Assembly (NCBI GenBank): GCA_963422265.1
Contig: OY729416.1
Coordinates: forward strand, 277,681-341,680
Length of the DNA: 64,000 nt
From: Thermodesulfobacteriota bacterium
Lineage (GTDB): Bacteria; Desulfobacterota_D; UBA1144; Nemesobacterales; UBA2774
Reading direction: 5' to 3'
This document shows positions 18,590 through 46,810 of the stretch, in pieces; position 1 is the stretch's first letter; each line of letters begins with the position of its first letter. A program made the translations under genes and the position numbers. The notes beneath the pieces are model-generated. The model made no database searches and was not told the DNA's origin. It saw only the letters and a list, made by a program, of their open reading frames with translations.

Positions 18590-18599
18590 GAGAGCAGAC

Positions 18600-31400: not shown

Positions 31401-34400
31401 GCGTTGAGTATAGTTTCCGTATCCGTGCGATGGCAGGTCGTGTTCCAGGGATGGAGTCGGATGTCGCCAGCGCGACGCCTGTGGCAGACAAGCCTATCGT
31501 TACGGCGACGCCGGGCAACGCTCTGGTGACGTTAAGCTGGAGTAATCCGAATGACGCTTCTATCACCGGGTATCAGATCAAGCAGTGGACTGGCAGTAGC
31601 GAGAGTGGGAGTTGGACTGACATATCGGGGAGTGGGGAGGACACCATCAGCCACGTGGTGAGTGGTCTGACCAACGGCGCCAGGTATGGTTTCCGTATCC
31701 GTGCGATGGTAGGCGCTGTTACAAGGACGCCGTCCGATCCCGTCAGTGCGACGCCTGTGTCGCCGCCTGTCGGACTCACGGCGACGCCGGGAGACTCTCA
31801 GGTGACGTTGACCTGGAATAATCCGAACAATCCCACCATCACCGGGTATCAGCTCAAAAAGTATCGTTTCACGATTGAGACCGGTTTTAACGAGGGTTCT
31901 TGGACTGACATACCAGGGAGTGGAAAGGACACCACCAGCTACGTGGTAACGAGTCTGACCAACGGCGCCAGGTATGGTTTCGAGATTCGTGCGGTGGTAG
32001 GCAGTGTTACAGGAGAGGAGTCCGAGTTCGTGCCCGTCACCCTGAGCAGCATCTTCACCATTACCGGGACGGTGACCCAGGGAGAGACACTGACCGCGGA
32101 TACCAGCACGATCTCCGACCCCGACGGCCCGAAGAGTCTGACGTTCACCTACCAATGGAAGCGCGGCGGGACTGCCATAGGCGGTGCCACCGGCCGCACC
32201 TACGTTCTGACGCAGGCCGACGTCGGGAAGGCTATCACCGTCATCGTGAGCTGGACCAATGCTCGTGGGACATTAAAGTCTCTCACCTCGACTGCGACTG
32301 CGAACGTGGCGAACGTGAATGAATCACCAACCGGGGCCGTTACCATCACCGGCACCGCCACCAGGGGACAGACGTTGACTGCGGATACCAGCACGATCGT
32401 CGACCCGGACGGCCCTGCCCGTCTGACGTTCACCTATCAATGGAATCGCGGCGGGACTGCCATAGGCGGTGCCACCGGCCGCACCTACGTTCTGACGCCG
32501 GCCGACGTCGGGAAGGCCATCAGCGTCACCGTGAGCTGGACCGATGCTGGCAGCACCGCGGAGTCATTCATCTCTGCTGCTACCACGAGTGTAACAAACA
32601 CCAACCAATCACCGACCGGGGCCGTCGCCATCACCGGCACCGCCACCCAGAAGCAGACACTGACCGCGGTTACCAGCACGATCGTCGACCCGGACGGCCC
32701 CAGCAGTCTAACGTTCAGCTACCAGTGGAACCGCGATGGGTCTGCCATCAGCAGTGCCACCGGCAGCACCTACGTGCTGACGCAAGCCGACGTCGGGGCC
32801 AAGATCACCGTCACCGTGAGCTGGACCGATGCTGGCAGCACCGCGGAGTCGTTCAACTCTGCTGCGACGGCGAAGGTGGCGAACGTGAATGACCTGCCGA
32901 CCGGGGCCGTCACCATCACCGGCACCGTCACCCAGAAGCAGACGTTGACCGCGGTGACCAGCACGATCTCCGACCCGGACGGCCCGAGTAATTTGGTTTT
33001 TAGCTATCAATGGAAGCGAGATGGGAATAACATCAGCAGCGCCACCGGCCGCACCTACGTTCTGACGCAGGCTGACGTCGGGAAGGCCATCATCGTCACC
33101 GTGAGCTGGACCGATGCTTATGGGGCATCAGAGTCTCTCACCTCTGCTGCGACAGCGAAGGTGGTGAACGTGAACGACCGGCCGACCGGGGCCGTCACCA
33201 TCACCGGCACCCCCATCCAGGGACAGATACTGACCGCGGACACCTCCGGCATTTCCGACCCGGACGTCCCTGACACTGACAGTCTGACCTTTACCTACCA
33301 GTGGACGCGTGGCCCGGATACTGTCAGCCGCACCAGCACTTACACCCTGACGCAGGCTGACGTCGGGGAGATCATCACCGTAGTCGTGGCTTATCAAGAT
33401 GGTGGGCGTAGGCAGCTTTTCCTTGCTAGAACTCCAAAGGTAGCGAACCTAAACGACGCACCGACCGGGGCCGTTACCATCACCGGCACCCCCACCCAGG
33501 GAGAGACACTGACCGCGGTGACCAGCACGATCTCCGACCCGGATGGCCCGAGTGATTTGGTGTTCAGCTACCAGTGGAAGCGCGATAGGATTGCCATCAG
33601 CAGCGCCACCGGCAGCACCTACACCCTGACGCAAGCCGACGTCGGGAAGGCCATCAGCGTCATTGTGAGCTGGACCGATGCTGGCAGCACCGCGGAGACC
33701 CTCACCTCTGTTGCTACCGCGAGTGTAACCAACATAAACGACTCACCGACCGGCAGCGTCACCATCACCGGCACCGTGACCCAGGGCCAGACACTGACCG
33801 CAGACACCTCCGGCATCTCCGACCCCGACGGCCCCGCCAGTCTGACCTTCAGCTACCAATGGAAACGCGATGGGTCTGACATCAGCAGTGCCACCAGTAG
33901 AACCTACATTCTGACGCAAGCCGACGTCGGGAAGGCCATCAGCGTCACCGTCAGCTGGACCGATGCCGGCAGCATCGTGGAGACCCTCACCTCTGCTGCG
34001 ACAGCGAACGTAGCGAACCTAAACGACTCGCCGACCGGTAGCGTCACCATCAGCGGCACGGTGACCCAGGGCCAGACCCTGACCGCAGTGACCAGCACGA
34101 TCGTCGACCCGGACGGCCCGGCCAGTCTGACCTTCAGCTACCAATGGAAACGCGATAGCACTGACATCAGCAGTGCCACCAGTAGAACCTACATTCTGAC
34201 GCAAGCCGACGTCGGGAAGGCCATCACCGTCATCGTGAGTTGGACCGATGCCGGCAGCATCGTGGAGACCCTTACCTCGACTGCGACAGCGAAGGTGGCG
34301 AACATGAATGACCCGCCGACCGGGGCTGTCACCATCAGCGGCACCGTGACCCAGGGCCAGACCCTGACCGCGGTGACCAGCACGATCGTCGACCCCGACG

Positions 34401-37400
34401 GCCCCAGCAGTCTAACCTTCACCTACCAATGGAACCGTGGCGGGAATCCCATCAGCAGCGCCACCGGCAGCACCTACACCCTGACACAAGCCGACGTCGG
34501 TAAGGCCATCAGCGTCATTGTGAGCTGGACCGATGCTGGCAGCACCGCGGAGACCCTCACCTCGGCGGCGACAGCGAACGTAACCAACGCGAACGATCCG
34601 CCGACCGGGGCTGTCACCATCAGCGGCACCGTGACCCAGGGCCAGACACTGACCGCAGACACCTCCGGCATCTCCGACCCCGACGGCCCCAGCAATCTGA
34701 CGTTCACCTACCAATGGAAGCGCGATGGGTCTGACATCAGCAGTGCCACCAGTAGAACCTACATTCTGACGCAAGCCGACGTCGGGAAGGCTATCACCGT
34801 CATCGTGAGTTGGACCGATGCCGGCAGCATCGTGGAGACCCTCACCTCTGCTGCGACAGCGAACGTAGCGAACCTAAACGACTCGCCGACCGGTAGCGTC
34901 ACCATCAGCGGCACGGTGACCCAGGGCCAGACCCTGACCGCAGTGACCAGCACGATCGTCGACCCGGACGGCCCGGCCAGTCTGACCTTCAGCTACCAAT
35001 GGAAACGCGATAGCACTGACATCAGCAGTGCCACCAGTAGAACCTACATTCTGACGCAAGCCGACGTCGGGAAGGCTATCACCGTCATCGTGAGTTGGAC
35101 CGATGCCGGCAGCATCGTGGAGACCCTTACCTCGACTGCGACAGCGAAGGTGGCGAACATGAATGACCCGCCGACCGGGGCTGTCACCATCAGCGGCACC
35201 GTGACCCAGGGCCAGACCCTGACCGCGGTGACCAGCACGATCGTCGACCCCGACGGCCCCAGCAGTCTAACCTTCACCTACCAATGGAACCGTGGCGGGA
35301 ATCCCATCAGCAGCGCCACCGGCAGCACCTACACCCTGACACAAGCCGACGTCGGTAAGGCCATCAGCGTCACCGTGAGTTGGACCGATGCCGGCAGCAT
35401 CGTGGAGACCCTCACCTCGGCGGCGACAGCGAACGTAACCAACGCGAACGATCCGCCGACCGGGGCGGTCACCATCACCGGCACCGTGACCCAGGGCCAG
35501 ACACTGACCGCGGATACCAGCACGATAGTTGACCCGGACGGCCCGGCCAGTCTGACCTTCAGCTACCAATGGAAACGCGATAGCACTGACATCAGCAGTG
35601 CCACCAGTAGAACCTACATTCTGACGCAAGCCGACGTCGGGAAGGCTATCACCGTCATCGTGAGTTGGACCGATGCCGGCAGCATCGTGGAGACCCTCAC
35701 CTCTGCTGCGACAGCGAACGTAGCGAACCTAAACGACTCGCCGACCGGTAGCGTCACCATCAGCGGCACGGTGACCCAGGGCCAGACCCTGACCGCAGTG
35801 ACCAGCACGATCGTCGACCCGGACGGCCCGGCCAGTCTGACCTTCAGCTACCAATGGAAACGCGATAGCACTGACATCAGCAGTGCCACCAGTAGAACCT
35901 ACATTCTGACGCAAGCCGACGTCGGGAAGGCTATCACCGTCATCGTGAGTTGGACCGATGCCGGCAGCATCGTGGAGACCCTTACCTCGACTGCGACAGC
36001 GAAGGTGGCGAACATGAATGACCCGCCGACCGGGGCTGTCACCATCAGCGGCACCGTGACCCAGGGCCAGACCCTGACCGCGGTGACCAGCACGATCGTC
36101 GACCCCGACGGCCCCAGCAGTCTAACCTTCACCTACCAATGGAACCGTGGCGGGAATCCCATCAGCAGCGCCACCGGCAGCACCTACACCCTGACACAAG
36201 CCGACGTCGGTAAGGCCATCAGCGTCACCGTGAGTTGGACCGATGCCGGCAGCATCGTGGAGACCCTCACCTCGGCGGCGACAGCGAACGTAACCAACGC
36301 GAACGATCCGCCGACCGGGGCGGTCACCATCACCGGCACCGTGACCCAGGGCCAGACACTGACCGCGGATACCAGCACGATAGTTGACCCGGACGGCCCG
36401 GCCAGTCTGACCTTCAGCTACCAATGGAAACGCGATAGCACTGACATCAGCAGTGCCACCAGTAGAACCTACATTCTGACGCAAGCCGACGTCGGGAAGG
36501 CTATCACCGTCATCGTGAGTTGGACCGATGCCGGCAGCATCGTGGAGACCCTTACCTCGACTGCGACAGCGAAGGTGGCGAACATGAATGACCCGCCGAC
36601 CGGGGCTGTCACCATCAGCGGCACCGTGACCCAGGGCCAGACCCTGACCGCAGACACCTCCGGCATCTCCGACCCCGACGGCCCCAGCAATCTGACGTTC
36701 ACCTACCAATGGAACCGTGGCGGGAATCCCATCAGCAGCGCCACCGGCAGCACCTACACCCTGACACAAGCCGACGTCGGTAAGGCCATCAGCGTCACCG
36801 TGAGTTGGACCGATGCCGGCAGCATCGTGGAGACCCTCACCTCGGCGGCGACAGCGAACGTAACCAACGCGAACGATCCGCCGACCGGGGCGGTCACCAT
36901 CACCGGCACCGTGACCCAGGGCCAGACACTGACCGCGGATACCAGCACGATAGTTGACCCGGACGGCCCGGCCAGTCTGACCTTCAGCTACCAATGGAAA
37001 CGCGATAGCACTGACATCAGCAGTGCCACCAGTAGAACCTACATTCTGACGCAAGCCGACGTCGGGGCGGCCATCAGCGTCGCCGTCAGCTGGACCGATG
37101 CCGGCAGCATCGTGGAGACCCTCACCTCTGATGCGACAGCGAACGTAGCGAACCTAAACGACTCGCCGACCGGTAGCGTCACCATCAGCGGCACGGTGAC
37201 CCAGGGCCAGACCCTGACCGCAGTGACCAGCACGATCGTCGACCCGGACGGCCCGGCCAGTCTGACCTTCAGCTACCAATGGAAACGCGATAGCACTGAC
37301 ATCAGCAGTGCCACCAGTAGAACCTACATTCTGACGCAAGCCGACGTCGGGGCGGCCATCAGCGTCGCCGTCAGCTGGACCGATGCCGGCAGCATCGTGG

Positions 37401-39310
37401 AGACCCTTACCTCGACTGCGACAGCGAAGGTGGCGAACATGAATGACCCGCCGACCGGGGCTGTCACCATCAGCGGCACCGTGACCCAGGGCCAGACCCT
37501 GACCGCGGTGACCAGCACGATCGTCGACCCCGACGGCCCCAGCAGTCTAACCTTCACCTACCAATGGAACCGTGGCGGGAATCCCATCAGCAGCGCCACC
37601 GGCAGCACCTACACCCTGACACAAGCCGACGTCGGTAAGGCCATCAGCGTCACCGTGAGTTGGACCGATGCCGGCAGCATCGTGGAGACCCTCACCTCGG
37701 CGGCGACAGCGAACGTAACCAACGCGAACGATCCGCCGACCGGGGCGGTCACCATCACCGGCACCGTGACCCAGGGCCAGACACTGACCGCAGACACCTC
37801 CGGCATCTCCGACCCCGACGGCCCCAGCAATCTGACGTTCACCTACCAATGGAAGCGCGATGGGTCTGACATCAGCAGTGCCACCAGTAGAACCTACGTT
37901 CTGACGCAGGCCGACGTCGGGAAGGCCATCAGCGTCATTGTGAGCTGGACCGATGCTGGCAGCACCGCGGAGACCCTCACCTCTGCTGCGACAGCGAACG
38001 TAACCAACGCGAACGATCCGCCGACCGGGGCTGTCACCATCACCGGCACCGTGACCCAGGGCCAGACACTGACCGCGGATACCAGCACGATAGTTGACCC
38101 CGACGGCCCCGCCAATCTGACGTTCACCTACCAATGGAAGCGCGATGGGTCTGACATCAGCAGTGCCACCAGTAGAACCTACGTTCTGACGCAGGCCGAC
38201 GTCGGGAAGGCCATCAGCGTCATTGTGAGCTGGACCGATGCTGGCAGCACCGTGGAGACCCTCACCTCTGCTGCGACAGCGAACGTAACCAACGCGAACG
38301 ATCCGCCGACCGGCAGCGTCACCATCAGCGGCACCGTGACCCAGGGCCAGACCCTGACCGCGGATACCAGCACGATAGTTGACCCCGACGGCCCCGCCAG
38401 TCTGACGTTCACCTACCAATGGAAGCGCGATGGGTCTGACATCAGCAGTGCCACCAGTAGAACCTACATTCTGACGCAAGCCGACGTCGGGAAGGCTATC
38501 ACCGTCATCGTGAGCTGGACCGATGCCGGCAGCATCGTGGAGACCCTTACCTCGGCGGCGACAGCGAAGGTGGTGAACGTGAACGACCCGCCGACCGGCA
38601 GCGTCACCATCACCGGCACCGTGACCCAGGGCCAGACACTGACCGCGGATACCAGCACGATAGTTGACCCCGACGGCCCCGCCAGTCTGACGTTCACCTA
38701 CCAATGGAAGCGCGATGGGTCTGACATCAGCAGTGCCACCAGTAGAACCTACGTTCTGACGCAGGCCGACGTCGGGAAGGCCATCAGCGTCATTGTGAGC
38801 TGGACCGATGCTGGCAGCACCGTGGAGACCCTCACCTCTGCTGCGACAGCGAACGTAACCAACGCGAACGATCCGCCGACCGGCAGCGTCACCATCAGCG
38901 GCACCGTGACCCAGGGCCAGACCCTGACCGCGGATACCAGCACGATAGTTGACCCCGACGGCCCCGCCAATCTGACGTTCACCTACCAATGGAAGCGCGA
39001 TGGGTCTGACATCAGCAGTGCCACCAGTAGAACCTACGTTCTGACGCAGGCCGACGTCGGGAAGGCCATCAGCGTCATTGTGAGCTGGACCGATGCTGGC
39101 AGCACCGTGGAGACCCTCACCTCTGCTGCGACAGCGAACGTAACCAACGCGAACGATCCGCCGACCGGCAGCGTCACCATCAGCGGCACCGTGACCCAGG
39201 GCCAGACCCTGACCGCGGATACCAGCACGATAGTTGACCCCGACGGCCCCGCCAGTCTGACGACCTACCAATGGAAGCGCGATGGGTCTGACATCAGCTG
39301 CCACCAGTAG
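28496..39310 (+). CDS. Giant repetitive surface adhesin-like protein, main 3604-aa ORF: beta-sandwich domains, 11 fibronectin type III domains, then about 25 tandem 95-aa repeats
   Basis: Continuous 10.8-kb ORF. FN3 consensus P..L.A..GD.QVTLSW..PND..ITGYQIKQW......W.DI.GS...TTS..V.GLTNGV.YSFRIRAV. 95-aa unit PTGAVTITGTVTQGQTLTADTS.I.DPDGP..LTF.YQWKR.G..ISSAT..TY.LTQADVGK.I.V.VSWTD.GS..E.L.S.AT..V.N.ND. Confidence 0.8.
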   Translation: MKLNGAPNADVTVTVRNNFPDEITVSPASLTFTTSDWNTPQRVTVTVLDNQVDNGDQRTILVWHLPTGGGYGSQQNTNITVQYNDNDTAGVTVTETGDSTATTEAGGTDTFTVVLNTEPLEGVRIAVSSSDISEGTVDKSSLTFTAANWDTVQTVTVTGQDDSLVDGDRAYNIVLAKVVSTDTNYHGIDPADVSVTNTDDDAGVTLSKSSVTVTEASGNSNTNTYTVVLDAQPSGTVTVTLTSGDTSVARVSPASLTFTTSDWNTAQQVTVTGVDDSTDEDRSTTITHTISGGGYGSVSIADVAVTLTDDDTARVTPPSKPTGLEAVGGDSQVTLTWNNPNNAAITGYQIRQRSYVNGAWTKFPKFSNIIPGSDASTTSHVVSGLTNGVRYSFQIREMVGKKGGKPSEAKATPAAPPPPKPSKPTGLRTVAGNNQATLIWNNPNNAAITKYQYKQWNSSSTESGAKWADIPGSDANTTSYVVSGLTNTSVIYRFRIRAVAGPSVGLQSSSAGAIIAVPPAAPVVTATPGDAQVRLSWSGSIGYYITRYQIKQWTGSSEPANGWKDIPGSRSSTTSHVVRGLTSGVSYSFRIRAVATCSFNSGRFIASDCSVAGTPSTPVSPTLVPGKPVVAPMPGDAQVTLSWSNPNDVAITKYQIKQWTGSSESGSWTDISGSGSSTTSHVVSGLTSGVRYSFRIRAVAGTNVAGTPSDPVRAVLLDKPVVSASAGDTLVTLSWSDPNDDSITRYQIKQWTGSSERGRWTDISGSGSSTTSLVVGRLTNGVRYSFRIRAMVGLFPGVESASVSSTPVPGKPAVTATPGTAQVTLSWSNPNDASIARYQIKQWTGSSESGSWTDISGSGEDTTSHVVRGLTNGVEYSFRIRAVTGTNASGTPSDPVSETPAVQPDKPAVTAAPAGDSLVRLSWSNPNDASITGYQIKRWTGSSESGSWTDISGSGKDTITYTVPGLTNGVEYSFRIRAMAGRVPGMESDVASATPVADKPIVTATPGNALVTLSWSNPNDASITGYQIKQWTGSSESGSWTDISGSGEDTISHVVSGLTNGARYGFRIRAMVGAVTRTPSDPVSATPVSPPVGLTATPGDSQVTLTWNNPNNPTITGYQLKKYRFTIETGFNEGSWTDIPGSGKDTTSYVVTSLTNGARYGFEIRAVVGSVTGEESEFVPVTLSSIFTITGTVTQGETLTADTSTISDPDGPKSLTFTYQWKRGGTAIGGATGRTYVLTQADVGKAITVIVSWTNARGTLKSLTSTATANVANVNESPTGAVTITGTATRGQTLTADTSTIVDPDGPARLTFTYQWNRGGTAIGGATGRTYVLTPADVGKAISVTVSWTDAGSTAESFISAATTSVTNTNQSPTGAVAITGTATQKQTLTAVTSTIVDPDGPSSLTFSYQWNRDGSAISSATGSTYVLTQADVGAKITVTVSWTDAGSTAESFNSAATAKVANVNDLPTGAVTITGTVTQKQTLTAVTSTISDPDGPSNLVFSYQWKRDGNNISSATGRTYVLTQADVGKAIIVTVSWTDAYGASESLTSAATAKVVNVNDRPTGAVTITGTPIQGQILTADTSGISDPDVPDTDSLTFTYQWTRGPDTVSRTSTYTLTQADVGEIITVVVAYQDGGRRQLFLARTPKVANLNDAPTGAVTITGTPTQGETLTAVTSTISDPDGPSDLVFSYQWKRDRIAISSATGSTYTLTQADVGKAISVIVSWTDAGSTAETLTSVATASVTNINDSPTGSVTITGTVTQGQTLTADTSGISDPDGPASLTFSYQWKRDGSDISSATSRTYILTQADVGKAISVTVSWTDAGSIVETLTSAATANVANLNDSPTGSVTISGTVTQGQTLTAVTSTIVDPDGPASLTFSYQWKRDSTDISSATSRTYILTQADVGKAITVIVSWTDAGSIVETLTSTATAKVANMNDPPTGAVTISGTVTQGQTLTAVTSTIVDPDGPSSLTFTYQWNRGGNPISSATGSTYTLTQADVGKAISVIVSWTDAGSTAETLTSAATANVTNANDPPTGAVTISGTVTQGQTLTADTSGISDPDGPSNLTFTYQWKRDGSDISSATSRTYILTQADVGKAITVIVSWTDAGSIVETLTSAATANVANLNDSPTGSVTISGTVTQGQTLTAVTSTIVDPDGPASLTFSYQWKRDSTDISSATSRTYILTQADVGKAITVIVSWTDAGSIVETLTSTATAKVANMNDPPTGAVTISGTVTQGQTLTAVTSTIVDPDGPSSLTFTYQWNRGGNPISSATGSTYTLTQADVGKAISVTVSWTDAGSIVETLTSAATANVTNANDPPTGAVTITGTVTQGQTLTADTSTIVDPDGPASLTFSYQWKRDSTDISSATSRTYILTQADVGKAITVIVSWTDAGSIVETLTSAATANVANLNDSPTGSVTISGTVTQGQTLTAVTSTIVDPDGPASLTFSYQWKRDSTDISSATSRTYILTQADVGKAITVIVSWTDAGSIVETLTSTATAKVANMNDPPTGAVTISGTVTQGQTLTAVTSTIVDPDGPSSLTFTYQWNRGGNPISSATGSTYTLTQADVGKAISVTVSWTDAGSIVETLTSAATANVTNANDPPTGAVTITGTVTQGQTLTADTSTIVDPDGPASLTFSYQWKRDSTDISSATSRTYILTQADVGKAITVIVSWTDAGSIVETLTSTATAKVANMNDPPTGAVTISGTVTQGQTLTADTSGISDPDGPSNLTFTYQWNRGGNPISSATGSTYTLTQADVGKAISVTVSWTDAGSIVETLTSAATANVTNANDPPTGAVTITGTVTQGQTLTADTSTIVDPDGPASLTFSYQWKRDSTDISSATSRTYILTQADVGAAISVAVSWTDAGSIVETLTSDATANVANLNDSPTGSVTISGTVTQGQTLTAVTSTIVDPDGPASLTFSYQWKRDSTDISSATSRTYILTQADVGAAISVAVSWTDAGSIVETLTSTATAKVANMNDPPTGAVTISGTVTQGQTLTAVTSTIVDPDGPSSLTFTYQWNRGGNPISSATGSTYTLTQADVGKAISVTVSWTDAGSIVETLTSAATANVTNANDPPTGAVTITGTVTQGQTLTADTSGISDPDGPSNLTFTYQWKRDGSDISSATSRTYVLTQADVGKAISVIVSWTDAGSTAETLTSAATANVTNANDPPTGAVTITGTVTQGQTLTADTSTIVDPDGPANLTFTYQWKRDGSDISSATSRTYVLTQADVGKAISVIVSWTDAGSTVETLTSAATANVTNANDPPTGSVTISGTVTQGQTLTADTSTIVDPDGPASLTFTYQWKRDGSDISSATSRTYILTQADVGKAITVIVSWTDAGSIVETLTSAATAKVVNVNDPPTGSVTITGTVTQGQTLTADTSTIVDPDGPASLTFTYQWKRDGSDISSATSRTYVLTQADVGKAISVIVSWTDAGSTVETLTSAATANVTNANDPPTGSVTISGTVTQGQTLTADTSTIVDPDGPANLTFTYQWKRDGSDISSATSRTYVLTQADVGKAISVIVSWTDAGSTVETLTSAATANVTNANDPPTGSVTISGTVTQGQTLTADTSTIVDPDGPASLTTYQWKRDGSDISCHQ
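29440..32040 (+). repeat. Array of 11 FN3-domain-coding repeats, about 270-290 bp each, moderately diverged
   Basis: Periodic protein motif in the 28496..39310 ORF. Confidence 0.75.
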
Positions 39311-40140
39311 AACCTACATTCTGACGCAAGCCGACGTCGGGAAGGCTATCACCGTCATCGTGAGCCGCATCGTGGAGACCCTTACCTCGGCGGCGACCGA
39401 AGGTGGTGAACGGAACGACCCGCGACCGGCAGCGTCACCATCACCGGGTGACCCAGGGCCAGACACTGACGGATACCAGCACGATAGTTGACCCCGACGG
39501 CCCCGCCAGTCTGACGTTCACCTACCAATGGAAGCGCGATGGGTCTGACATCAGCAGTGCCACCAGTAGAACCTACGTTCTGACGCAGGCCGACGTCGGG
39601 AAGGCCATCAGCGTCATTGTGAGCTGGACCGATGCTGGCAGCACCGCGGAGACCCTCACCTCTGCTGCGACAGCGAACGTAACCAACGCGAACGATCCGC
39701 CGACCGGGGCTGTCACCATCACCGGCACCGTGACCCAGCAATCTGACGTTCAGCTACCAATGGAAGCGCGATGGGTCTGACATCAGCAGTGCCACCAGTA
39801 GAACCTACGTTCTGACGCAGGCCGACGTCGGGAAGGCCATCAGCGTCATTGTGAGCTGGACCGATGACCGCGGAGACCCTCACCTCTGATGCGACAGCGA
39901 ACGTAACCAACGCGATCCGCCGACCGGGGCGGTCACCATCACCGGCACCGTGACCCAGGGCCAGACACTGACACCTCCGGCATCTCCGACCCCGACGGCC
40001 CCAGCAATCTGACGTTCAGCTACCAATGGAAGCGCGATGGGTCTGACATCAGCAGTGCCACCAGTAGAACCTACGTTCTGACGCAGGCCGACGTCGGGAA
40101 GGCCATCACCGTCACCGTCAGCTGGACCGACAGCGGCGGT
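32040..40140 (+). repeat. Tandem 285-bp (95-aa) repeat array A, about 28 units including 855-bp higher-order repeats that are near-identical at the DNA level
   Basis: Antisense ORFs recur at exact 285- and 855-bp spacing (e.g. 33904, 34759, 35614). Long stretches (33961-34250 versus 34816-35105) are identical. Confidence 0.85.
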
Positions 40141-40254
40141 ACCGCGGAGACCCTCACCTCTGCGGCTACTTCGGTCGCCGGCGTCACGTTATCCACGAGA
40201 GCGGTCACCGTCACCGAAGCCAGTGGCAGCAGTAATACCAACACCTACACCGTA
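39230..40254 (+). pseudogene. Degenerate or collapsed segment of repeat array A: several short ORFs in different frames. Relative to neighbouring copies it differs by many 1-17 nt deletions and almost no substitutions.
   Basis: E.g. cagacactgacacctccggc versus canonical cagacactgaccgcagacacctccggc; tgagccgcatcgtggagaccc versus tgagctggaccgatgccggcagcatcgtggagaccc. Confidence 0.5.
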
Positions 40255-43200
40255 GTGCTCGACACCCAACCCTCGGGCAACGTCACCGTCACGCCCACCA
40301 GCGGCGATAGCGACGTGGCGACCGTATCCCCGGTCTCCCTGACGTTTACCACGAGCAACTGGAGTACGGCACAGATCGTCACCGTCACCGGTGTGGACGA
40401 CAGCAGCGATGGTGATAGAAGTACCACCATCACCCATGCAGCCTCTGGTGGTGGCTACGACTCAGTGGTCATTGCCAGCGTCAGTGTAACGCTGACCGAT
40501 GACGACACCGCCGGTGTCACCGTGTCCGAGAGCGGTGTCACGGTAACCGAAGCCAGTGGCAGCAGTAATACCAACACCTACACCGTAGTACTCAACACCC
40601 GGCCGAGTGGCAACGTCACCGTCACGCCGACCAGCGGCGATACCAATGTGGCGACCGTATCTGGGGCCCTGACCTTTACCACCAGCAACTGGAGTACGGC
40701 ACAGTCCATCACCGTCACCGGTGTGGACGACAGCAGCGATGGTGATAGAAGCACCACCATCACCCATGCAGCCTCTGGCGGCGGCTACAACGCAGTGGTC
40801 ATCTCCGACGTAGCGGTAACGCTGACCGATGACGACACCGCCGGTGTCACCGTGTCCGAGAGCAGCGTCACGGTAACCGAAGCCAGTGGCAGCAGTAATA
40901 CCAACACCTACACCGTAAAACTTAACACCCGGCCGAGTGGCACCGTCACCGTCACGCCCACCAGCGGCGATAGCGACGTGGCGACCGTATCCCCGGTCTC
41001 CCTGACGTTTACCACGAGCAACTGGGGTACGGCACAGTCCATCACCGTCACCGGTGTGGACGACAGCAGCGATGGGGATAGAAGCACCACCATCACCCAT
41101 GCAGCCTCTGGCGGCGGCTACAACGCAGTGGTCATCTCCGACGTAGCGGTAACGCTGACCGATGACGATAACAACTCGCCGACGGGTTCGGTAACCATTA
41201 CTGGGGCGGCGACGCAGGGGCAGAGGCTTACGGCAGATACCAGCACGATCGTTGATCCAGACGGTCCGAGTAATCTGACGTTCAGCTATCAATGGAAGCG
41301 GGGCGGGACTGACATCAGCGGGGCGACCAGTAGCACCTACGTTCTAACACAGGCGGACGTCGGTTCTATGATCACAGTAGTAGTGAGTTGGACGGACAGC
41401 GGTAGTACAGTGGAATCTCTGACCTCTGCTGCTACAGCAAGTGTAGCGAACTTAAACGACTTGCCGACTGGTGCAGTAACCATTACGGGGACGGTGACGC
41501 AGGGGCAGACACTGACCGCGGATACCGGCACGATTGTTGACCCAGACGGTCCGAGTAATCTGACGTTCAGCTATCAATGGAAGCGGGGTGGGACTGATAT
41601 CAACGGGGCGACCAGTAGCACCTACGTTCTGACACAGGCGGACGTAGGTTCTGTGATCACAGTAGTAGTGAGTTGGACGGACGCTGGTGGGGCATCGGAA
41701 TCCCTCACCTCTGCTGCTACAGCAAGTGTGGCAAACACCAACAACTTGCCGACTGGTGCAGTAACCATTACTGGGACGGTGACGCAGGGGCAGACGCTTA
41801 CGGCGGATACCGGCACGATCGTTGATCCAGACGGTCCGAGTAGTCTGACGTTCAGCTATCAGTGGAAGCGAGGTGGGACTGATATCAGCGGGGCGACCAG
41901 TAGCACCTACGTTCTGACACAGGCGGACGTCGGTTCTGTGATCACAGTAGTAGTGAGTTGGACGGACAGCGGTAGTACAGTGGAGACTCTTACCTCTGCT
42001 GCTACAGCAAGTGTAGCGAACGTAAACGACTTGCCGACTGGTGCGGTAACCATCACCGGGACGGCGACCCAGGGCCAGACACTGACCGCGGATACCAGCA
42101 CGATTGTTGACCCAGACGGTCCGAGTAATCTGACGTTCAGCTATCAGTGGAAGCGAGGTGGGACTGACATCAGCGGGGCGACCAGTAGCACCTACGTTCT
42201 GACACAGGCGGACGTCGGTTCTGTGATCACAGTAGTAGTGAGTTGGACGGACAGCGGTAGTACAGTGGAGACTCTTACCTCTGCTGCTACAGCAAGTGTA
42301 GCGAACGTAAACGACTCGCCGACTGGTGCAGTCACCATCACCGGCACGGCGACCCAGGGCCAGACACTGACCGCGGATACCAGCACGATCGTTGATCCAG
42401 ACGGCCCGAGTAATCTGACGTTCAGCTATCAATGGAAGCGAGGTGGGACTGACATCAGCGGCGGCGCCAGTAGCACCTACGTTCTGACACAGGCGGACGT
42501 CGGGGCGGCAATCACCGTCACTGTGAGCTGGACTGACGCTGGTGGGGCATCGGAATCTCTTACCTCTGCTGCTACAGCAAGTGTAGCGAACGTAAACGAC
42601 TTGCCGACTGGTGCGGTAACCATTACGGGGACGGCAACCCAGGGGCAGACACTGACCGCGGATACCAGCACGATTGTTGACCCAGACGGTCCGAGTAATC
42701 TGACGTTCAGCTATCAATGGAAGCGGGGTGGGACTGACATCAGCGGGGCGACCAGTAGCACCTACATTCTGACACAGGCGGACGTCGGTTCTGTGATCAC
42801 AGTAGTAGTGAGTTGGACGGACGCTGGTGGGACATCGGAATCCCTCACCTCTGCTGCTACAGCAAGTGTAGCGAACGTAAACGACTTGCCGACTGGTGCG
42901 GTAACCATTACGGGGACGGCAACCCAGGGGCAGACGCTTACAGCGGATACCGGCACGATCGTTGATCCAGACGGTCCGAGCAGTCTGACGTTCAGCTATC
43001 AATGGAAGCGAGGCGGGACTGATATCAACGGGGCGACCAGTAGCACCTACATTATGACACAGGCGGACGTCGGTTCTGTGATCACAGTAGTAGTGAGTTG
43101 GACGGACAGCGGTAGTACAGTGGAATCTCTGACCTCTGCTGCTACAGCAAGTGTAGCGAACGTAAACGACTCGCCGACTGGTGCGGTAACCATTACGGGG

Positions 43201-45618
43201 ACGGCGACCCAGGGCCAGACACTGACCGCGGATACCGGCACGATTGTTGACCCAGACGGTCCGAGTAATCTGACGTTCAGCTATCAATGGAAGCGAGGCG
43301 GGACTGACATCAGCGGCGCCACTACTAGCACCTACGTTCTGACACAGGCGGACGTAGGTTCTGTGATCACAGTAGTAGTGAGTTGGACGGACGCTGGTGG
43401 GGCATCGGAATCTCTTACCTCGACTGCCACTGCGAAGGTGATTAACATCAGCGGTGCTGACTCTGGCACGATTATTGATGTAGTAGAGGACGGTGGTCGC
43501 AGCATCATCACGGCAACGGTTGACGAGACGGCTGTGAAGCTGACGCTGCCATCTGGACACGGCGTGACGGAGATTGAGTTTTCACCGGCGGCGCCCACTG
43601 TTACTGAGCCGTCGGGCGTGAGCTTTGGGGGTAAACCGTCTTACGTGGATATAGATCTGGACGTGGAGCTCTCGTCATCATCAAGTGCCATCGTCTGTCT
43701 GGAGGAGCCCGAAGAGCTGTCAGGTAATCTATCGGTATATCATCTTGCCGATGTAGAAGGTGCGGGGTGGAGGAAGCTGCCGTCGCCTGCATCGGTGCCC
43801 AGCGGTTATGTATGCGGTAAAACGAGTAGTTTTTCTACTTTTGTATTGGGTTCGCCAAAGCCGACTTTCGGTTCAGAATCCATTGGGGACTATGTCTGGA
43901 CGGTTGGTGTGGAAGTTGTTGATGTTGTTCTACCTGAGGCTACTGGTGGTGACGGTGTTATTACCTACAGTCTGAGACCGTCTCTACCATTGGATCTTAA
44001 GTTTAATGATGATTCTCCTCGCGCTATCACTGGCAAGCCGACTGAGGCGTTAGCTAAGACGAAGTTCACCTACAAGGCTGAGGACGTAGATGGCGATACA
44101 AGTGAGTTGTCATTTAGCATAACGGTTCGTGCAGCCGAGGAAAAGGAGCGAGCGCGTGTTCTTTCTGTAGTGTTAGCTTCTTTTGGACGGGCAGCTGCAA
44201 CCGGAGCGGTGGACGTAATAGGTGAACGTTTTGTTTCTTCTTCTTCTCTGGCAGGTAGTCCTAAATTGACATTGGGTGGTGTTTCTATGACATCGTTTGA
44301 CACTCGTTCTGTGGCAGGAGCTGTGGATGGGGTGTTGGGTCTGAGTGGTGGTTCAGATATTGAATTGTTGGAGGGTTTAGATCGAGAGCCTGTTGAGTTA
44401 CGGCGTGTTTCTGGGAGGGATTTGTTTGCGCAGAGCGAATTTTCTATTCCTTTGAGTAGTAGTGGTGATATGGGAGGAGTGATGCGAGGTTGGACGTTAT
44501 GGGGCAGTGGTGCGGGTAGTGGATTTTCTGGTAGTAATTTGGATGGAGATATAGATACAGAGGGTGAGTTGTATACGGGCTACATGGGATTGGACTATAG
44601 GTTTGGTAATAGGGGTTTGGCGGGAGTAGCGATATCTCGTAGTGTTGGAGAGGTGGACTATGAGGTGGATGGTAGCTTTCATCTTATGGGTGGAGAGACA
44701 GGTAGTATCCGAGGGGAGGTAGATTTGGAGTTGACGAGCGTTCTTCCATATGCGCACTACACTATTCGTCCTGGTCTTAGTATATGGGGTTTGTTTGGAG
44801 CGGGTATAGGCGATATTGAGTTGGAGGATGGGGCAGGAGAAGTAGAGGCGGACGTAAATATGCTGATGGTAGCGTTGGGAGTGCGTCAGGAGTTGGCTAG
44901 ATGGGGAGATATAGATTTTGGGTTAAAGAGTGATGGTTTTGCAGTGCAGTTAAAGACAGAGGGGGTGGAAGGTCTTTCTGGTGTTAGTGGAGTAGCGCGT
45001 CGTTTGCGATTAGGTTTAGAGATGAGCCGTGACGTGTATGTGACAGGAGATTCTTTGTTGCTACCAAGTGTGGAGATAGGGGGGCGATGGGACGGCGGAG
45101 ATGCGGATAGTGGAGTAGGTATGGAGGTAGGCGGAGGTATAGAGTATGTTCATAGAGGTTTGGGTTTGAGCGTGGAGGTTCGAGGGAGGTATTTGTTGTT
45201 TCATGAGGAGTCTGAGTTTGAGGATTGGGGAGGTAGTTTTTCATTGCGGATGGGTGATGGAGTTCGGGGGCGTGGATTGTGGTTGAAGTTTGAGCCTGAG
45301 TGGGGTGAGGTAGCGAGTGGAGTAGAGCGAATGTGGCGAGGTGAGGTTGATAGTGGGTTAGGAGTAGGGAAGCGGGGTTTATCTCCTGGGCGTGTGAAGT
45401 TTGACGTTGGATATGGTATGGAGACGCGAGGTAGTGGGTGGCTTGTAACGCCGTATAGTGGCGTATCTATTATGAGGGAGGGGGAGCGCGAGTATAGGTT
45501 GGGTGGCAAGGTAGGTGTAGGGGAGTGGATGGATATAAGTTTGGAGGGGGAGCGTCGAGAGGTTTCTAATGGAGTTGTGGATCACGGAATACTATTATGG
45601 TGGAAGCTGTTATTGTAG
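40255..45618 (+). CDS. C-terminal 1787-aa ORF of the giant adhesin: 3 beta-sandwich domains, 8 more 95-aa repeats (array B), a cadherin-like domain and a C-terminal autotransporter-like beta-barrel
   Basis: Frame is open from 39891; the first start codon is a GTG at 40255, inside a domain. The tail GWTLWGSGAGSGFSGSNLDGDIDTEGELYTGYMGLDYRFGNRGLAGVAISRS has a type Va beta-domain-like pattern. YSLRPSLPLDLKFNDDSPRAITGKPTE..FTYKAEDVDGDTS resembles He_PIG/dystroglycan-type cadherin domains. Confidence 0.75.
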   Translation: MLDTQPSGNVTVTPTSGDSDVATVSPVSLTFTTSNWSTAQIVTVTGVDDSSDGDRSTTITHAASGGGYDSVVIASVSVTLTDDDTAGVTVSESGVTVTEASGSSNTNTYTVVLNTRPSGNVTVTPTSGDTNVATVSGALTFTTSNWSTAQSITVTGVDDSSDGDRSTTITHAASGGGYNAVVISDVAVTLTDDDTAGVTVSESSVTVTEASGSSNTNTYTVKLNTRPSGTVTVTPTSGDSDVATVSPVSLTFTTSNWGTAQSITVTGVDDSSDGDRSTTITHAASGGGYNAVVISDVAVTLTDDDNNSPTGSVTITGAATQGQRLTADTSTIVDPDGPSNLTFSYQWKRGGTDISGATSSTYVLTQADVGSMITVVVSWTDSGSTVESLTSAATASVANLNDLPTGAVTITGTVTQGQTLTADTGTIVDPDGPSNLTFSYQWKRGGTDINGATSSTYVLTQADVGSVITVVVSWTDAGGASESLTSAATASVANTNNLPTGAVTITGTVTQGQTLTADTGTIVDPDGPSSLTFSYQWKRGGTDISGATSSTYVLTQADVGSVITVVVSWTDSGSTVETLTSAATASVANVNDLPTGAVTITGTATQGQTLTADTSTIVDPDGPSNLTFSYQWKRGGTDISGATSSTYVLTQADVGSVITVVVSWTDSGSTVETLTSAATASVANVNDSPTGAVTITGTATQGQTLTADTSTIVDPDGPSNLTFSYQWKRGGTDISGGASSTYVLTQADVGAAITVTVSWTDAGGASESLTSAATASVANVNDLPTGAVTITGTATQGQTLTADTSTIVDPDGPSNLTFSYQWKRGGTDISGATSSTYILTQADVGSVITVVVSWTDAGGTSESLTSAATASVANVNDLPTGAVTITGTATQGQTLTADTGTIVDPDGPSSLTFSYQWKRGGTDINGATSSTYIMTQADVGSVITVVVSWTDSGSTVESLTSAATASVANVNDSPTGAVTITGTATQGQTLTADTGTIVDPDGPSNLTFSYQWKRGGTDISGATTSTYVLTQADVGSVITVVVSWTDAGGASESLTSTATAKVINISGADSGTIIDVVEDGGRSIITATVDETAVKLTLPSGHGVTEIEFSPAAPTVTEPSGVSFGGKPSYVDIDLDVELSSSSSAIVCLEEPEELSGNLSVYHLADVEGAGWRKLPSPASVPSGYVCGKTSSFSTFVLGSPKPTFGSESIGDYVWTVGVEVVDVVLPEATGGDGVITYSLRPSLPLDLKFNDDSPRAITGKPTEALAKTKFTYKAEDVDGDTSELSFSITVRAAEEKERARVLSVVLASFGRAAATGAVDVIGERFVSSSSLAGSPKLTLGGVSMTSFDTRSVAGAVDGVLGLSGGSDIELLEGLDREPVELRRVSGRDLFAQSEFSIPLSSSGDMGGVMRGWTLWGSGAGSGFSGSNLDGDIDTEGELYTGYMGLDYRFGNRGLAGVAISRSVGEVDYEVDGSFHLMGGETGSIRGEVDLELTSVLPYAHYTIRPGLSIWGLFGAGIGDIELEDGAGEVEADVNMLMVALGVRQELARWGDIDFGLKSDGFAVQLKTEGVEGLSGVSGVARRLRLGLEMSRDVYVTGDSLLLPSVEIGGRWDGGDADSGVGMEVGGGIEYVHRGLGLSVEVRGRYLLFHEESEFEDWGGSFSLRMGDGVRGRGLWLKFEPEWGEVASGVERMWRGEVDSGLGVGKRGLSPGRVKFDVGYGMETRGSGWLVTPYSGVSIMREGEREYRLGGKVGVGEWMDISLEGERREVSNGVVDHGILLWWKLLL
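41160..43440 (+). repeat. Tandem 285-bp repeat array B (8 units). Same protein repeat as array A but with a different synonymous codon set.
   Basis: E.g. ccgaccggggccgtcaccatcaccggcacc (A) versus ccgactggtgcggtaaccattacggggacg (B); both encode PTGAVTITGT. Confidence 0.8.
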
Positions 45619-45633
45619 AAAGAATAAAGATTA

Positions 45634-45668
45634 AATCCCCCCCCCTTCCCTTTACAAAAGGGGGGATT
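45634..45668 (+). terminator. GC hairpin aatccccccccc...ggggggatt just after the giant gene stop. The loop is long and no U-tract follows.
   Basis: C9 at 45637-45645 and G6 at 45660-45665. Confidence 0.3.
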
Positions 45669-45744
45669 GTATAGGGAATGAACTCTCGTCCCCCGATGCT
45701 CTATCTGGATTCCTAGTCGAGCTGGTAATGATGGGCAAGTTGGT

Positions 45745-45925
45745 AATGACGGGTTGTTAAAAGCTGTTAGAACTAGCTATTCTCTTTCATTTTCCATCTT
45801 TTTTCTGTTACTTTCTCGGCACTTTTCTTTAACTTTTCTATTCATTTTCTATCCTTTTTATCTCTTTTCTTTAACGTGGTAAGCACGTCTCTATGAGGCA
45901 TGTCCTCATAATAATTTAAGCTCTC
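45745..45925. repeat. About 170-bp dispersed repeat element, copy B, inverted relative to copy A at 4925-5100
   Basis: The reverse complement aligns with 4925-5100, including the ccacgttaaagaaaag and atgaaagagaatagctagtt ends. Confidence 0.65.
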
Positions 45926-46042
45926 TTGGGTGGCAAATATGACGTCGCTAATTGAGGCCTAATTAAGGCGGCAGACGCTTTCCTTTCAACTCCCACTAGG
46001 TTAAACTTGCTTATCAATAGGATATAAAAATTGAGGAGGTAA

Positions 46043-46810
46043 ATGGAGATGAGGCTTACAGGCAAGATCGCCTTGATCACGGGTGGGGGTGAAGGCATAG
46101 GCAGGGCTACGGCTCTGTTATTTTCCGAGTCGGGGGTGGATGTTGGTATAATGGGTAGAACCGAGTCTAAACTTGATGGTGTAGTGCAGGAAGCCCAGGG
46201 TCCGGGGGAAATTACGGCTTATCAGGGAGACGTTTCGGTTGAGGGAGACGTAAAGAGGGTAGTCAATAGCTTTTATGATAAACACGGAAAGATAGACATA
46301 CTTTTTAATAATGCGGGAATTCTCGAAGGTGGGACGGTAGTTACGACTTCCGTGGATACGTGGGATCGGACAATGAATATAAATGTAAAGGGAATATTTC
46401 TGATGAGTAAACACGTTCTACCTCTTATGGTAAAGCACGGCGGGGGCGCTGTCATAAATAATTCTTCCGTTCTGGGAATGGTAGGAATGGAAGGATGTGT
46501 AGCTTATAATGCCTCTAAAGGGGCAGTGAGGCAGATAACGAGAAGTATGGCGATTGATCACGCTGGTGATAATATACGCGTGAATTCAGTTTGTCCGGGG
46601 TATATCAAGACCAAGATGGATCCAGAGTTTATGGGCAATCCTCCTGATGCTGAAGAGCAGCTTGACAAGATCGCTGCGGATATGATTCCCTTGGTTAGAA
46701 GAGCGGAAGCCGTTGAAGTGGGTCACGCCGTGTTATATCTGGCAAGTGACGAGGCAAGATACGTAACGGGTTCCGATTTGGTCATTGATGGAGGATGGAC
46801 AGCCGTCTAA
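46043..46810 (+). CDS. SDR-family oxidoreductase (classical short-chain dehydrogenase)
   Basis: TGGGEGIGRA Rossmann motif, NNAG, and the YNASK catalytic YxxxK. Confidence 0.85.
   Translation: MEMRLTGKIALITGGGEGIGRATALLFSESGVDVGIMGRTESKLDGVVQEAQGPGEITAYQGDVSVEGDVKRVVNSFYDKHGKIDILFNNAGILEGGTVVTTSVDTWDRTMNINVKGIFLMSKHVLPLMVKHGGGAVINNSSVLGMVGMEGCVAYNASKGAVRQITRSMAIDHAGDNIRVNSVCPGYIKTKMDPEFMGNPPDAEEQLDKIAADMIPLVRRAEAVEVGHAVLYLASDEARYVTGSDLVIDGGWTAV

What the first reader, a model, noticed from the sequence alone, without database searches (positions are those of the whole stretch)
43440..45618. C-terminal He_PIG/cadherin-like domain plus autotransporter-like barrel on a 6,000-aa passenger
The tail (GW.LWGSGAGSGFSG...YTGYMGLDYRFG..LAGVAISRS...) resembles type Va translocator domains and is preceded by a helix-rich linker (AAEEKERARVLSVVLASFGRAAATG). 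If real, this would be among the largest autotransporter passengers. The tail ends in LLWWKLLL rather than a canonical terminal aromatic residue. It is therefore worth checking against Bam-dependent barrel, intimin/invasin-like (inverse) and T9SS C-terminal alternatives.
Basis: inference. Interest (0 to 1): 0.55.

Follow-up and report, generated by a model that had tools for sequence, protein, structure and literature searches.

The report
Oversized autotransporter-like barrel on giant adhesin
The end of this giant, repeat-filled surface-protein gene encodes a confidently predicted outer-membrane barrel from a very large, unstudied family that is distantly related to autotransporters; the barrel looks about half as large again as the classical kind, and the gene as sequenced is broken by frameshifts.

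Summary
The quoted motifs are present, and the last ~375 aa (44491-45609) fold into a beta-barrel in two AlphaFold2 runs (pLDDT 85/82, pTM 0.81/0.74). A conserved 42-residue helix precedes it. The query's PF03797 score is 25.1 bits against a cutoff of 26, and covers only profile positions 1-103 of 255. Eight of ten homologues tested pass the cutoff (33.9-40 bits).

The barrel belongs to a family of at least 10,566 50%-identity clusters. The barrel is always C-terminal, and member proteins reach 7,203 aa. In genomes the family was found only in MAGs, from more than ten phyla.

The barrel is not classical. It has about 18 strand segments, and solved 12-strand autotransporter barrels superpose on only ~250 residues (TM 0.5-0.63). 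An ~80-aa spacer separates the helix from strand 1. The passenger is FN3 and Ig-like beads, not a beta-helix.

The query keeps 35 of 35 conserved family residues, but its terminal W is L (TGG to TTG); 90% of relatives end in W, F or Y.

The "6,000-aa passenger" is not one ORF. The 26270-45618 span is broken by clustered indels at 26.9-28.4 kb and 39.26-39.98 kb, which are either assembly artefact or decay. No T9SS, intimin or POTRA signal was found.

Verdict: a real autotransporter-like translocator or anchor, and a new variant of a known kind. Interest is moderate.

The parts
26270..26359 (+). Sec-type signal peptide of the giant gene (MIPRQHLRRLAATLGLIFFIICVLPGTAQA|AKG)
   Evidence: Read from the ORF translation: basic n-region, hydrophobic core, A-Q-A cleavage motif. 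No predictor was run.
26360..43440 (+). Passenger. It contains ~110-aa Ig-like units with no Pfam match, 9 FN3 domains, 27 tandem 285-nt AIR9-A9/Ig-like repeats, three 330-nt units, and 8 more 285-nt repeats. The reading frame is broken in two clusters.
   Evidence: Pfam fn3 260.5 bits in 9 stretches and IG_AIR9. Tandem Repeats Finder arrays at 30332-31857, 32055-39738, 40196-41168 and 41170-43421. Frame path.
39261..39980 (+). Damaged repeat zone: 12 deletions of 1-53 nt relative to the adjacent intact repeats, plus an in-frame stop at 39889
   Evidence: Pairwise alignment to the intact copies at 38406-39260; stop-to-stop frame map.
43441..43932 (+). Unassigned beta-rich domain between the last repeat and the He_PIG-like domain
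   Evidence: No Pfam or NCBIfam hit.
43933..44127 (+). He_PIG-like Ig domain
   Evidence: PF05345 at 22.7 bits against a cutoff of 24, residues 165-229 of the 725-aa piece. The same segment is 36-55% identical to the region just upstream of the linker in L001-L005, L008, L010 and L011. PF05345 is precomputed on P0023, P0028, P0029, P0034, P0044 and P0082.
44119..44244 (+). Conserved 42-residue alpha-helix (family motif AWLARFGRTVA...R; query VVLASFGRAAA...R)
   Evidence: AF2 helix at residues 2-43, pLDDT 92-96 over residues 11-40. Column conservation G 98%, R 100%, R38 99%, F 91%.
44245..44490 (+). ~80-aa spacer between helix and barrel. The middle is low-confidence and variable. The conserved R[ED]LLxGSSF motif (query RDLFAQSEF, 44416-44442) sits just before strand 1.
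   Evidence: pLDDT below 50 for residues 71-97; F109 conserved in 98% of sequences.
44491..45609 (+). Outer-membrane beta-barrel of ~375 aa with 18 DSSP strand segments. The invariant R-x-D-G-G-D-A-[ED]-x-G motif sits at the strand 9/10 hairpin.
   Evidence: AF2 models. Strand list. PF03797 match at 44497-44826. 35 of 35 conserved family residues kept.
45577..45618 (+). Last strand, the beta-signal position, and the stop codon. The query reads HGILLWWKLLL* where the family reads HxVxLxGxLRW.
   Evidence: Alignments A1 and A2. The terminal codon is TTG where relatives have Trp (TGG), one G-to-T difference.
45637..45666 (.). G/C-rich hairpin directly after the stop codon, terminator-like
   Evidence: Consensus scan: 11-pair stem, called on the - strand. 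This is a pattern match only.

Best explanation
Window 43441-45618 encodes the membrane end of a giant cell-surface adhesin-like protein. The host is a small-genome bacterium related to Candidatus Dadabacteria. The order of parts is: an unassigned beta domain, a He_PIG-type Ig domain, a conserved 42-residue helix, an ~80-aa spacer, and a ~375-aa outer-membrane beta-barrel.

The barrel belongs to a very large uncharacterised family whose first strands are recognisably homologous to autotransporter beta-domains (PF03797).

Proposed mechanism, which is inferred and not shown:
1. The protein is exported by Sec using the signal peptide at 26270.
2. The C-terminal barrel is inserted into the outer membrane by BAM, using its last strand as the beta-signal.
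3. The chain of FN3 and Ig-like beads is threaded outward through or alongside the nascent barrel, C-terminus first.
4. The conserved FGR helix, and possibly the spacer, stay in the lumen as a plug and tether. The passenger therefore remains covalently anchored.

The barrel appears enlarged relative to classical 12-strand type Va domains, at 16-18 strands. In this assembly the gene is interrupted by clustered indels. The terminal Trp is replaced by Leu.
For: Barrel prediction:
- AF2 gave pLDDT 84.8 and pTM 0.81 for the last 500 aa.
- AF2 gave pLDDT 81.9 and pTM 0.74 for the barrel alone.
- Both runs gave the same strand pattern.

Homology to autotransporters:
- PF03797 scores 25.1 bits in the query and 33.9-40 bits, above the cutoff of 26, in 8 of the 10 homologues tested.
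- Another homologue carries the NCBI name 'autotransporter outer membrane beta-barrel domain-containing protein'.
- The best superpositions by TM-score (target-normalised) and rmsd are autotransporter barrels: BrkA 3qq2 TMt 0.57-0.63 with rmsd 5.4-7.8, Hbp 3aeh 0.54, NalP 1uyn 0.49, AIDA-I 4mee 0.49.

Family:
- 10,566 cluster representatives at E<=1e-3, and 6,071 at E<=1e-30.
- The barrel is at the extreme C-terminus in nearly all of the 150 listed.
- 236 of 262 members end in W, F or Y.
- The query keeps 35 of 35 invariant or near-invariant residues.
- The helix motif is conserved.

Other support:
- A signal peptide is present at 26270.
- No partner gene recurs in the flanks of 80 loci from many phyla, so the system looks self-contained.
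- The host encodes an RND efflux permease, and the nearest named relatives of its PNPase (72-77% identical; unnamed hits reach 80%) are Dadabacteria and Thermodesulfobacteriota MAGs. Both are consistent with a two-membrane cell.
Against: - Nothing about translocation or surface exposure is tested.
- The position of the helix inside the pore could not be checked, because the tools return no coordinates.
- Barrel closure could not be confirmed by covariation. Effective sequence number was 208 and there was no strand 1 to strand 18 signal.
- The query's PF03797 score is below the gathering threshold and covers only 40% of the profile.
- No solved autotransporter barrel is detectable by sequence profile.
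- The terminal aromatic residue of the beta-signal is missing.
- The gene is not one ORF as sequenced.
- The passenger is beads-on-a-string, not the beta-helix usual for type Va.
Confidence: 0.7

Rival explanations
1. It is an ordinary classical type Va autotransporter. The barrel has 12 strands with a helix in the pore, and the apparent extra size is prediction or alignment noise.
For: PF03797 is the only barrel family hit. Autotransporter beta-domains give the best TM-score and rmsd among PDB hits.
Against: - The barrel region is ~375 aa against the 255-position Pfam model.
- Pfam matches stop at profile position 97-208 in every homologue tested.
- Two independent AF2 runs give the same 18 strand segments at high confidence.
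- Solved 12-strand barrels cover only ~250 columns, with query-normalised TM about 0.4.
- The conserved terminal beta-signal strand lies ~120 aa beyond the twelfth strand.
- The strand 12/13 hairpin has covariation support, z=2.8.
- An ~80-aa spacer separates the helix from strand 1.
Confidence: 0.08
2. This copy is a decaying pseudogene. The frameshifts and the lost terminal Trp are real, so no full-length anchored adhesin is made.
For: - There are at least 8 frame changes and one in-frame stop.
- There are 12 deletions in 720 bp.
- There are 1-nt indels at 27376, 28094, 28107 and 28393.
- The terminal W is L, against 90% aromatic termini in the family.
Against: - The damage is confined to two short zones inside near-identical repeats.
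- 11 kb (28328-39310) and 5.7 kb (39907-45618) stay open.
- All 12 events at 39.3-40.0 kb are deletions of mixed size and do not lie in homopolymers. From general knowledge, that pattern suggests poor long-read consensus in a repeat.
- The barrel keeps 35 of 35 conserved residues.
Confidence: 0.3
3. The barrel is only an anchor or channel. It would be a plugged porin-like or TonB-receptor-like barrel. The N-terminal repeats would either stay in the periplasm or reach the surface by another route.
For: By Foldseek E-value, TonB-dependent receptors and LptD rank as high as autotransporter barrels. The barrel is large enough to need a plug. The spacer and the RELLxGSSF motif could form one.
Against: - TM-scores to those 22-26-strand barrels are poor, 0.16-0.40 with rmsd 11-21 Å.
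- No plug-domain or TonB-box family was hit.
- The architecture of Sec signal, long passenger, helix and C-terminal barrel is that of type V.
- From general knowledge, FN3, Ig and Calx-beta arrays are typical of extracellular adhesins.
Confidence: 0.12
4. The tail is a different sorting or anchoring device: a T9SS C-terminal domain, an inverse autotransporter (intimin/invasin), or a two-partner-secretion component.
For: None found.
Against: - Pfam at E<=0.1 on the last 725 aa returned only PF03797 and He_PIG.
- NCBIfam at E<=0.1 returned nothing.
- So there was no T9SS sorting domain, no inverse-autotransporter beta-domain, and no POTRA or ShlB hit.
- The barrel is C-terminal, not N-terminal as in type Ve.
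- No Omp85-like partner recurs in 80 loci.
- The tail is a ~375-aa barrel. From general knowledge, a T9SS C-terminal domain is a ~80-100-aa beta-sandwich.
Confidence: 0.02

Closest known systems
Classical (type Va) autotransporter beta-domain, Pfam PF03797 (solved examples NalP 1uyn, EspP 2qom, Hbp 3aeh, BrkA 3qq2, AIDA-I 4mee)
   Same: - Order of parts: N-terminal Sec signal, long passenger, alpha-helix, C-terminal outer-membrane barrel.
- HMM homology over the first 4-10 strands.
- Family-wide terminal aromatic beta-signal.
- No partner gene.
- Best structural superposition among solved barrels.
   Different: - ~375 aa with about 18 predicted strand segments, against 12 strands in ~255-280 aa.
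- The helix is separated from strand 1 by an ~80-aa spacer.
- Family-specific invariant motifs (FGR helix, RELLxGSSF, RxDGGDAExG).
- The passenger is FN3 and Ig-like beads rather than a beta-helix.
- The query ends in Leu.
Inverse autotransporters (type Ve; intimin, invasin)
   Same: The passenger is built of tandem Ig-like domains that must cross the outer membrane and stay anchored.
   Different: In type Ve the barrel is N-terminal, has 12 strands and belongs to a different Pfam family. Here the barrel is C-terminal and no such family is hit.
Giant repeat adhesins exported by type I secretion (LapA, SiiE and MpIBP type)
   Same: Multi-thousand-residue chains of near-identical Ig-like repeats. 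Calx-beta domains occur in relatives. A likely host- or surface-binding role.
   Different: Those proteins lack a Sec signal and a C-terminal barrel, and carry RTX repeats with a C-terminal T1SS signal. None of that is seen here.
Uncharacterised C-terminal barrel family found here (e.g. P0001-P0114, P0235-P0382; loci L001-L080)
   Same: 28-48% identity over the helix, spacer and barrel. All 35 conserved residues are shared. The architecture is the same, with giant passengers.
   Different: - The terminal W/F is replaced by L.
- Strong depletion of cytosine and of Ala, Thr, Pro and Gln in the barrel.
- A He_PIG domain rather than the more common Calx-beta domain sits next to the helix.
- The frame is broken upstream.

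Membership tests
Type Va autotransporter (PF03797) | C-terminal domain matches the autotransporter beta-domain model above the curated threshold | tested here: inconclusive
   The query scores 25.1 bits against a cutoff of 26, covering profile positions 1-103 of 255. Eight of ten homologues score 33.9-40 bits, but only over profile positions 1-97 or 1-208. NCBIfam gave no hit.
Type Va autotransporter (PF03797) | 12-stranded barrel | tested here: not met
   Two AF2 models show 18 strand segments over ~375 aa. Strand parity allows 16 or 18. Solved 12-strand barrels align to only ~250 columns.
Type Va autotransporter (PF03797) | Alpha-helical linker that occupies the barrel pore and runs straight into strand 1 | tested here: inconclusive
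   A conserved 42-residue helix is predicted at pLDDT 92-96. It is ~80 aa upstream of strand 1, and its position relative to the lumen cannot be read from the tool output.
Type Va autotransporter (PF03797) | N-terminal Sec signal peptide on the same polypeptide | tested here: inconclusive
   A signal-like N-terminus is present at 26270. At least 8 frame breaks separate it from the barrel ORF.
Type Va autotransporter (PF03797) | C-terminal beta-signal ending in an aromatic residue | tested here: not met
   The query ends KLLL. 236 of 262 relatives end in W, F or Y, most often RW. The terminal residue is still hydrophobic.
Type Va autotransporter (PF03797) | Self-sufficient, with no dedicated partner translocator | tested here: met
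   No gene family other than the barrel gene recurs in the ±10 kb flanks of 80 loci from many phyla. This is absence of evidence only.
Uncharacterised enlarged autotransporter-like barrel family (this work) | FGR helix, RELLxGSSF motif, RxDGGDAExG hairpin and the other near-invariant barrel residues | tested here: met
   E=2.6e-104 to the best relative. 35 of 35 conserved residues are present. The helix and pre-barrel motifs are present.
Inverse autotransporter (type Ve) | N-terminal barrel of the intimin/invasin family followed by the passenger | tested here: not met
   The barrel is C-terminal, and no such Pfam hit appeared at E<=0.1.
T9SS cargo | C-terminal sorting domain, a ~80-100-aa beta-sandwich | tested here: not met
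   NCBIfam found 0 families at E<=0.1. Pfam found only PF03797 and He_PIG. The tail is a ~375-aa barrel.
Two-partner secretion (type Vb) | Separate Omp85-type transporter with POTRA domains, and a TPS domain on the cargo | tested here: not met
   No POTRA, ShlB or TPS hits. No recurrent neighbouring gene.

The most novel reading that the evidence does not exclude
The family may be a distinct, enlarged (16-18-strand) class of type V translocator. Its lumen would hold a conserved FGR helix plus an ~80-aa plug-like spacer. It would be specialised for exporting and anchoring multi-thousand-residue chains of Ig-like, FN3 and Calx-beta domains. It would be exchanged horizontally among uncultured, probably sponge-associated, bacteria of more than ten phyla as a modular host-interaction adhesin. 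The passenger modules would be swapped onto resident barrels.
Probability: 0.3. Interest if true: 0.7.

Novelty: new variant of a known kind. Interest (0 to 1): 0.45.

Why it matters
If the enlarged barrel is real, it extends type V secretion beyond the 12-strand rule (16 strands in types Vb and Vd, whose barrels are Omp85-like). It would also offer a natural system for asking how very long, non-beta-helical passengers cross the outer membrane.

The family is large, with more than 10,000 50%-identity clusters, and here it was seen only in metagenome-assembled genomes. Many of these appear to come from sponge microbiomes, which I infer from isolate names and my own knowledge, not from a test. 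It is therefore a candidate for a major, unstudied class of symbiont surface adhesins.

For this particular locus the practical message is more modest. The annotation 'autotransporter-like barrel' is right. The single 6,000-aa protein is not demonstrated.

Tried and rejected
- Profile searches of PDB sequences with A1 and A2 found only Calx-beta (from upstream parts of homologues) and chance hits. No autotransporter barrel was found.
- Mean-field DCA was run on 282 sequences with an effective number of 208. It supported hairpins 2-3, 6-7, 12-13, 15-16 and 17-18 (z>2.7) but was too weak to test barrel closure.
- Exact-sequence look-ups of the neighbouring SDR and of PNPase found no contig record. 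Taxonomy therefore rests on the nearest named PNPase relatives at 72-77% identity.
- Four literature searches found no description of this family or of autotransporter barrels with more than 12 strands.
- The first Pfam and NCBIfam calls failed because the finding's start coordinate is one base out of frame.
- Calx-beta was expected in the query's ~110-aa units but is not detected by Pfam at E<=0.001.
Full report
**What is there**

The correct frame starts at 43441, not 43440.

Pfam on the last 725 aa returns two sub-threshold hits:
- PF03797 Autotransporter: E=1.8e-5, 25.1 bits against a cutoff of 26, profile positions 1-103 of 255, window 44497-44826.
- PF05345 He_PIG: 22.7 bits against a cutoff of 24, window 43933-44127.

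NCBIfam returns nothing at E<=0.1. There is therefore no T9SS tail, no autotransporter-barrel TIGRFAM, no intimin/invasin domain and no POTRA.

**Is it a barrel?**

A search of 5.8 billion proteins with the last 500 aa found 114 relatives. The best reached 47% identity at E=2.6e-104. Many carry precomputed PF03797, Calx-beta, FN3 or He_PIG domains.

I ran AlphaFold2 twice:

| Input | Alignment depth | pLDDT | pTM |
|---|---|---|---|
| Last 500 aa | 100 sequences | 84.8 | 0.81 |
| Last 400 aa | 34 sequences | 81.9 | 0.74 |

Both models give the same secondary structure:
- a 42-residue helix at residues 2-43 (pLDDT 92-96 over residues 11-40);
- a short hairpin;
- a low-confidence stretch at residues 71-97;
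- 18 beta-strand segments from residue 126 to 498, joined by short turns.

The connection that would face the periplasm is always short. One long variable loop at residues 398-425 falls on the outer face. Strand parity allows 16 or 18 wall strands. I could not inspect coordinates, so closure is inferred from the high pTM and from the conserved terminal strand.

**Relation to known barrels**

Ten homologues were scanned against Pfam. Eight pass the PF03797 threshold at 33.9-40 bits. The match always stops at profile position 97 or about 207 of 255.

Foldseek against the PDB gives two kinds of hit at E of about 1e-6 to 6e-4:
- 22-26-strand barrels (TonB-dependent receptors, LptD), with poor superposition: TM 0.16-0.40, rmsd 11-21 Å.
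- 12-strand autotransporter barrels, with the best superposition but covering only ~250 of the ~375 barrel residues: BrkA TMt 0.57-0.63 and rmsd 5.4-7.8 Å, Hbp 0.54, NalP 0.49, AIDA-I 0.49, EspP 0.56.

Sequence profiles of the family find no solved autotransporter barrel. The domain is therefore homologous to autotransporter beta-domains at its N-terminal strands. It is larger than every solved one, and no solved barrel matches it along its whole length.

**The family**

A profile search of 1.84 billion cluster representatives found 10,566 proteins at E<=1e-3 and 6,071 at E<=1e-30. The barrel sits at the very C-terminus in nearly all of the 150 listed. Total lengths reach 7,203 aa, with others at 5,075, 5,031 and 3,702 aa.

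In one-genome-per-species GTDB contigs, at least 350 relatives were found. The best 80 are all MAGs. They come from:
- Binatia
- Gamma- and Alphaproteobacteria
- Gemmatimonadota
- Nitrospirales
- Nitrospinaceae
- Latescibacterota
- Acidobacteriota
- Thermodesulfobacteriota
- Entotheonella
- Spirochaetia

Some genomes carry several copies. One Binatia chromosome has at least six.

From my own knowledge, isolate labels such as SB06xx_bin, IRC1_bin and RHO1_bin, and the UUID-named long-read MAGs, are sponge-microbiome assemblies. This was not tested here.

Eleven of 40 loci have open frames running more than 3,700 aa to the edge of the fetched DNA. No other gene family recurs next to the barrel gene across phyla. 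That fits a self-contained system.

Conserved family features:
- a helix motif AWLARFGRTVA...R (G 98%, R 100%, R38 99%);
- R[ED]LLxGSSF just before strand 1 (F 98%);
- an invariant RxDGGDAExG hairpin between strands 9 and 10;
- a terminal ...HxVxLxGxLRW; 236 of 262 members end in W, F or Y.

**This copy**

The query retains 35 of 35 invariant or near-invariant residues. It ends HGILLWWKLLL, aligned without gaps to HGIMLRGRLLW of P0001. The final codon is TTG where relatives have Trp (TGG).

From general knowledge, a hydrophobic terminal residue is tolerated by the degenerate BAM beta-signal consensus. It is nonetheless clearly atypical for this family.

**The passenger**

A Sec-type signal peptide opens an ORF at 26270, with an A-Q-A cleavage motif. 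The coding path then contains, in order:
- ~110-aa Ig-like units with no Pfam match;
- nine FN3 domains (260 bits);
- 27 tandem 285-nt AIR9-A9/Ig-like repeats;
- three 330-nt units;
- eight more 285-nt repeats.

The path changes frame at least eight times and has one in-frame stop. All of this falls in two zones, 26.9-28.4 kb and 39.26-39.98 kb.

The second zone has 12 deletions of 1-53 nt relative to the neighbouring intact repeats. None lies in a homopolymer. The first zone has scattered 1-nt indels. Elsewhere, 11 kb and 5.7 kb are open.

I read this clustering inside near-identical repeats as more likely a consensus or assembly problem than decay. I put real disruption at about 0.3. Only the reads can settle it.

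**Host and context**

The flanks are chromosomal housekeeping genes: infB, pnp, miaA, cytochrome c maturation, an SDR, apbC, nuoM and an RND permease. Flank G+C is about 43%.

The PNPase is 100% identical to a protein on a 1.78-Mb contig. Unnamed relatives reach 80% identity. The nearest named relatives, at 72-77%, are Candidatus Dadabacteria and Thermodesulfobacteriota MAGs.

**Mechanism**

Shown:
- the domain order;
- the barrel prediction;
- homology to PF03797;
- family conservation;
- absence of a recurrent partner gene.

Inferred:
- Sec export;
- BAM-dependent insertion via the last strand;
- C-to-N threading of the bead-like passenger;
- the FGR helix, with or without the spacer, retained in the lumen as a tether and plug;
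- the passenger displayed as an anchored adhesin.

Conserved lumen-facing charged residues (R296, R298, E302, E320, R324, D326, R358, H363) could hold the helix, as salt bridges do in classical autotransporters. This is speculation.

**Verdict**

The alternatives it raised are rejected.

Three corrections apply. The barrel is a non-classical, enlarged variant. The 6,000-aa protein is not a single ORF here. Such sizes are normal for the family.

Four full-text searches found no description of the family. Some members are already auto-annotated as autotransporter barrels. I rate it a new variant of a known kind, with interest 0.45.

Noticed in passing
window 40255-45618 (whole gene 26270-45618): Third-position cytosine falls in steps along one gene. 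It is 55-57% at 40255-41155, 24-32% in the A9 repeats, 16-17% at 43555-44150, and only 4-8% in the helix and barrel. Total C in the barrel is 9.2% and GC skew reaches 0.7. Neighbouring + strand genes have 18% C3. The barrel protein is correspondingly poor in Ala, Thr, Pro and Gln compared with homologues. This suggests a mosaic gene, with passenger modules of foreign composition on a resident barrel. The barrel being more C-poor than the background is unexplained.
   Followed up: partly
window 40177-41168 vs L052 5222-8208: Three 330-nt passenger units share about 75% nucleotide identity over ~1 kb with three tandem units in a Nitrospirales MAG (OY729426.1). That is a different phylum from the Dadabacteria-like host. 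It is consistent with horizontal exchange of passenger modules.
   Followed up: partly
window 39261-39980 and 27370-28417: Indels are clustered inside near-identical repeats. There are 12 deletions of 1-53 nt in 720 bp, and single-base indels at 27376, 28094, 28107 and 28393. The pattern looks like local consensus or assembly error, but could be decay.
   Followed up: partly
window 14000-24000 and 44000-46500: Strong coding-strand GC skew, +0.2 to +0.3, in + strand housekeeping genes (infB, pnp), against about 0 to -0.09 in - strand genes. This implies a marked strand-asymmetric C depletion in this genome.
   Followed up: no
window 45637-45666: A C9/G6-rich hairpin lies immediately after the stop codon. 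The scan scored it as terminator-like on the - strand, so it may be a bidirectional terminator. It is followed by an AT-rich 350-bp spacer before the SDR gene.
   Followed up: no
window 26360-29500 and 40255-41168: The ~110-aa units (consensus ...TYTVVLNTRPSGNVTVTPTSGD..VATVSP.SLTFTTSNW.TAQ.VTVTGVDD...DR.TTITH.ASGGGY...) resemble Calx-beta or Ig-like modules. They get no Pfam hit at E<=0.001. Homologues of the barrel carry bona fide Calx-beta domains in the equivalent place.
   Followed up: partly
loci L001-L080: hmmsearch found 91 barrel-bearing open frames in 80 loci, so some loci seem to hold more than one gene of the family. Long antisense ORFs overlapping the GC-rich barrel genes recur in 13-20 loci; they look like shadow ORFs, though this was not examined.
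   Followed up: no
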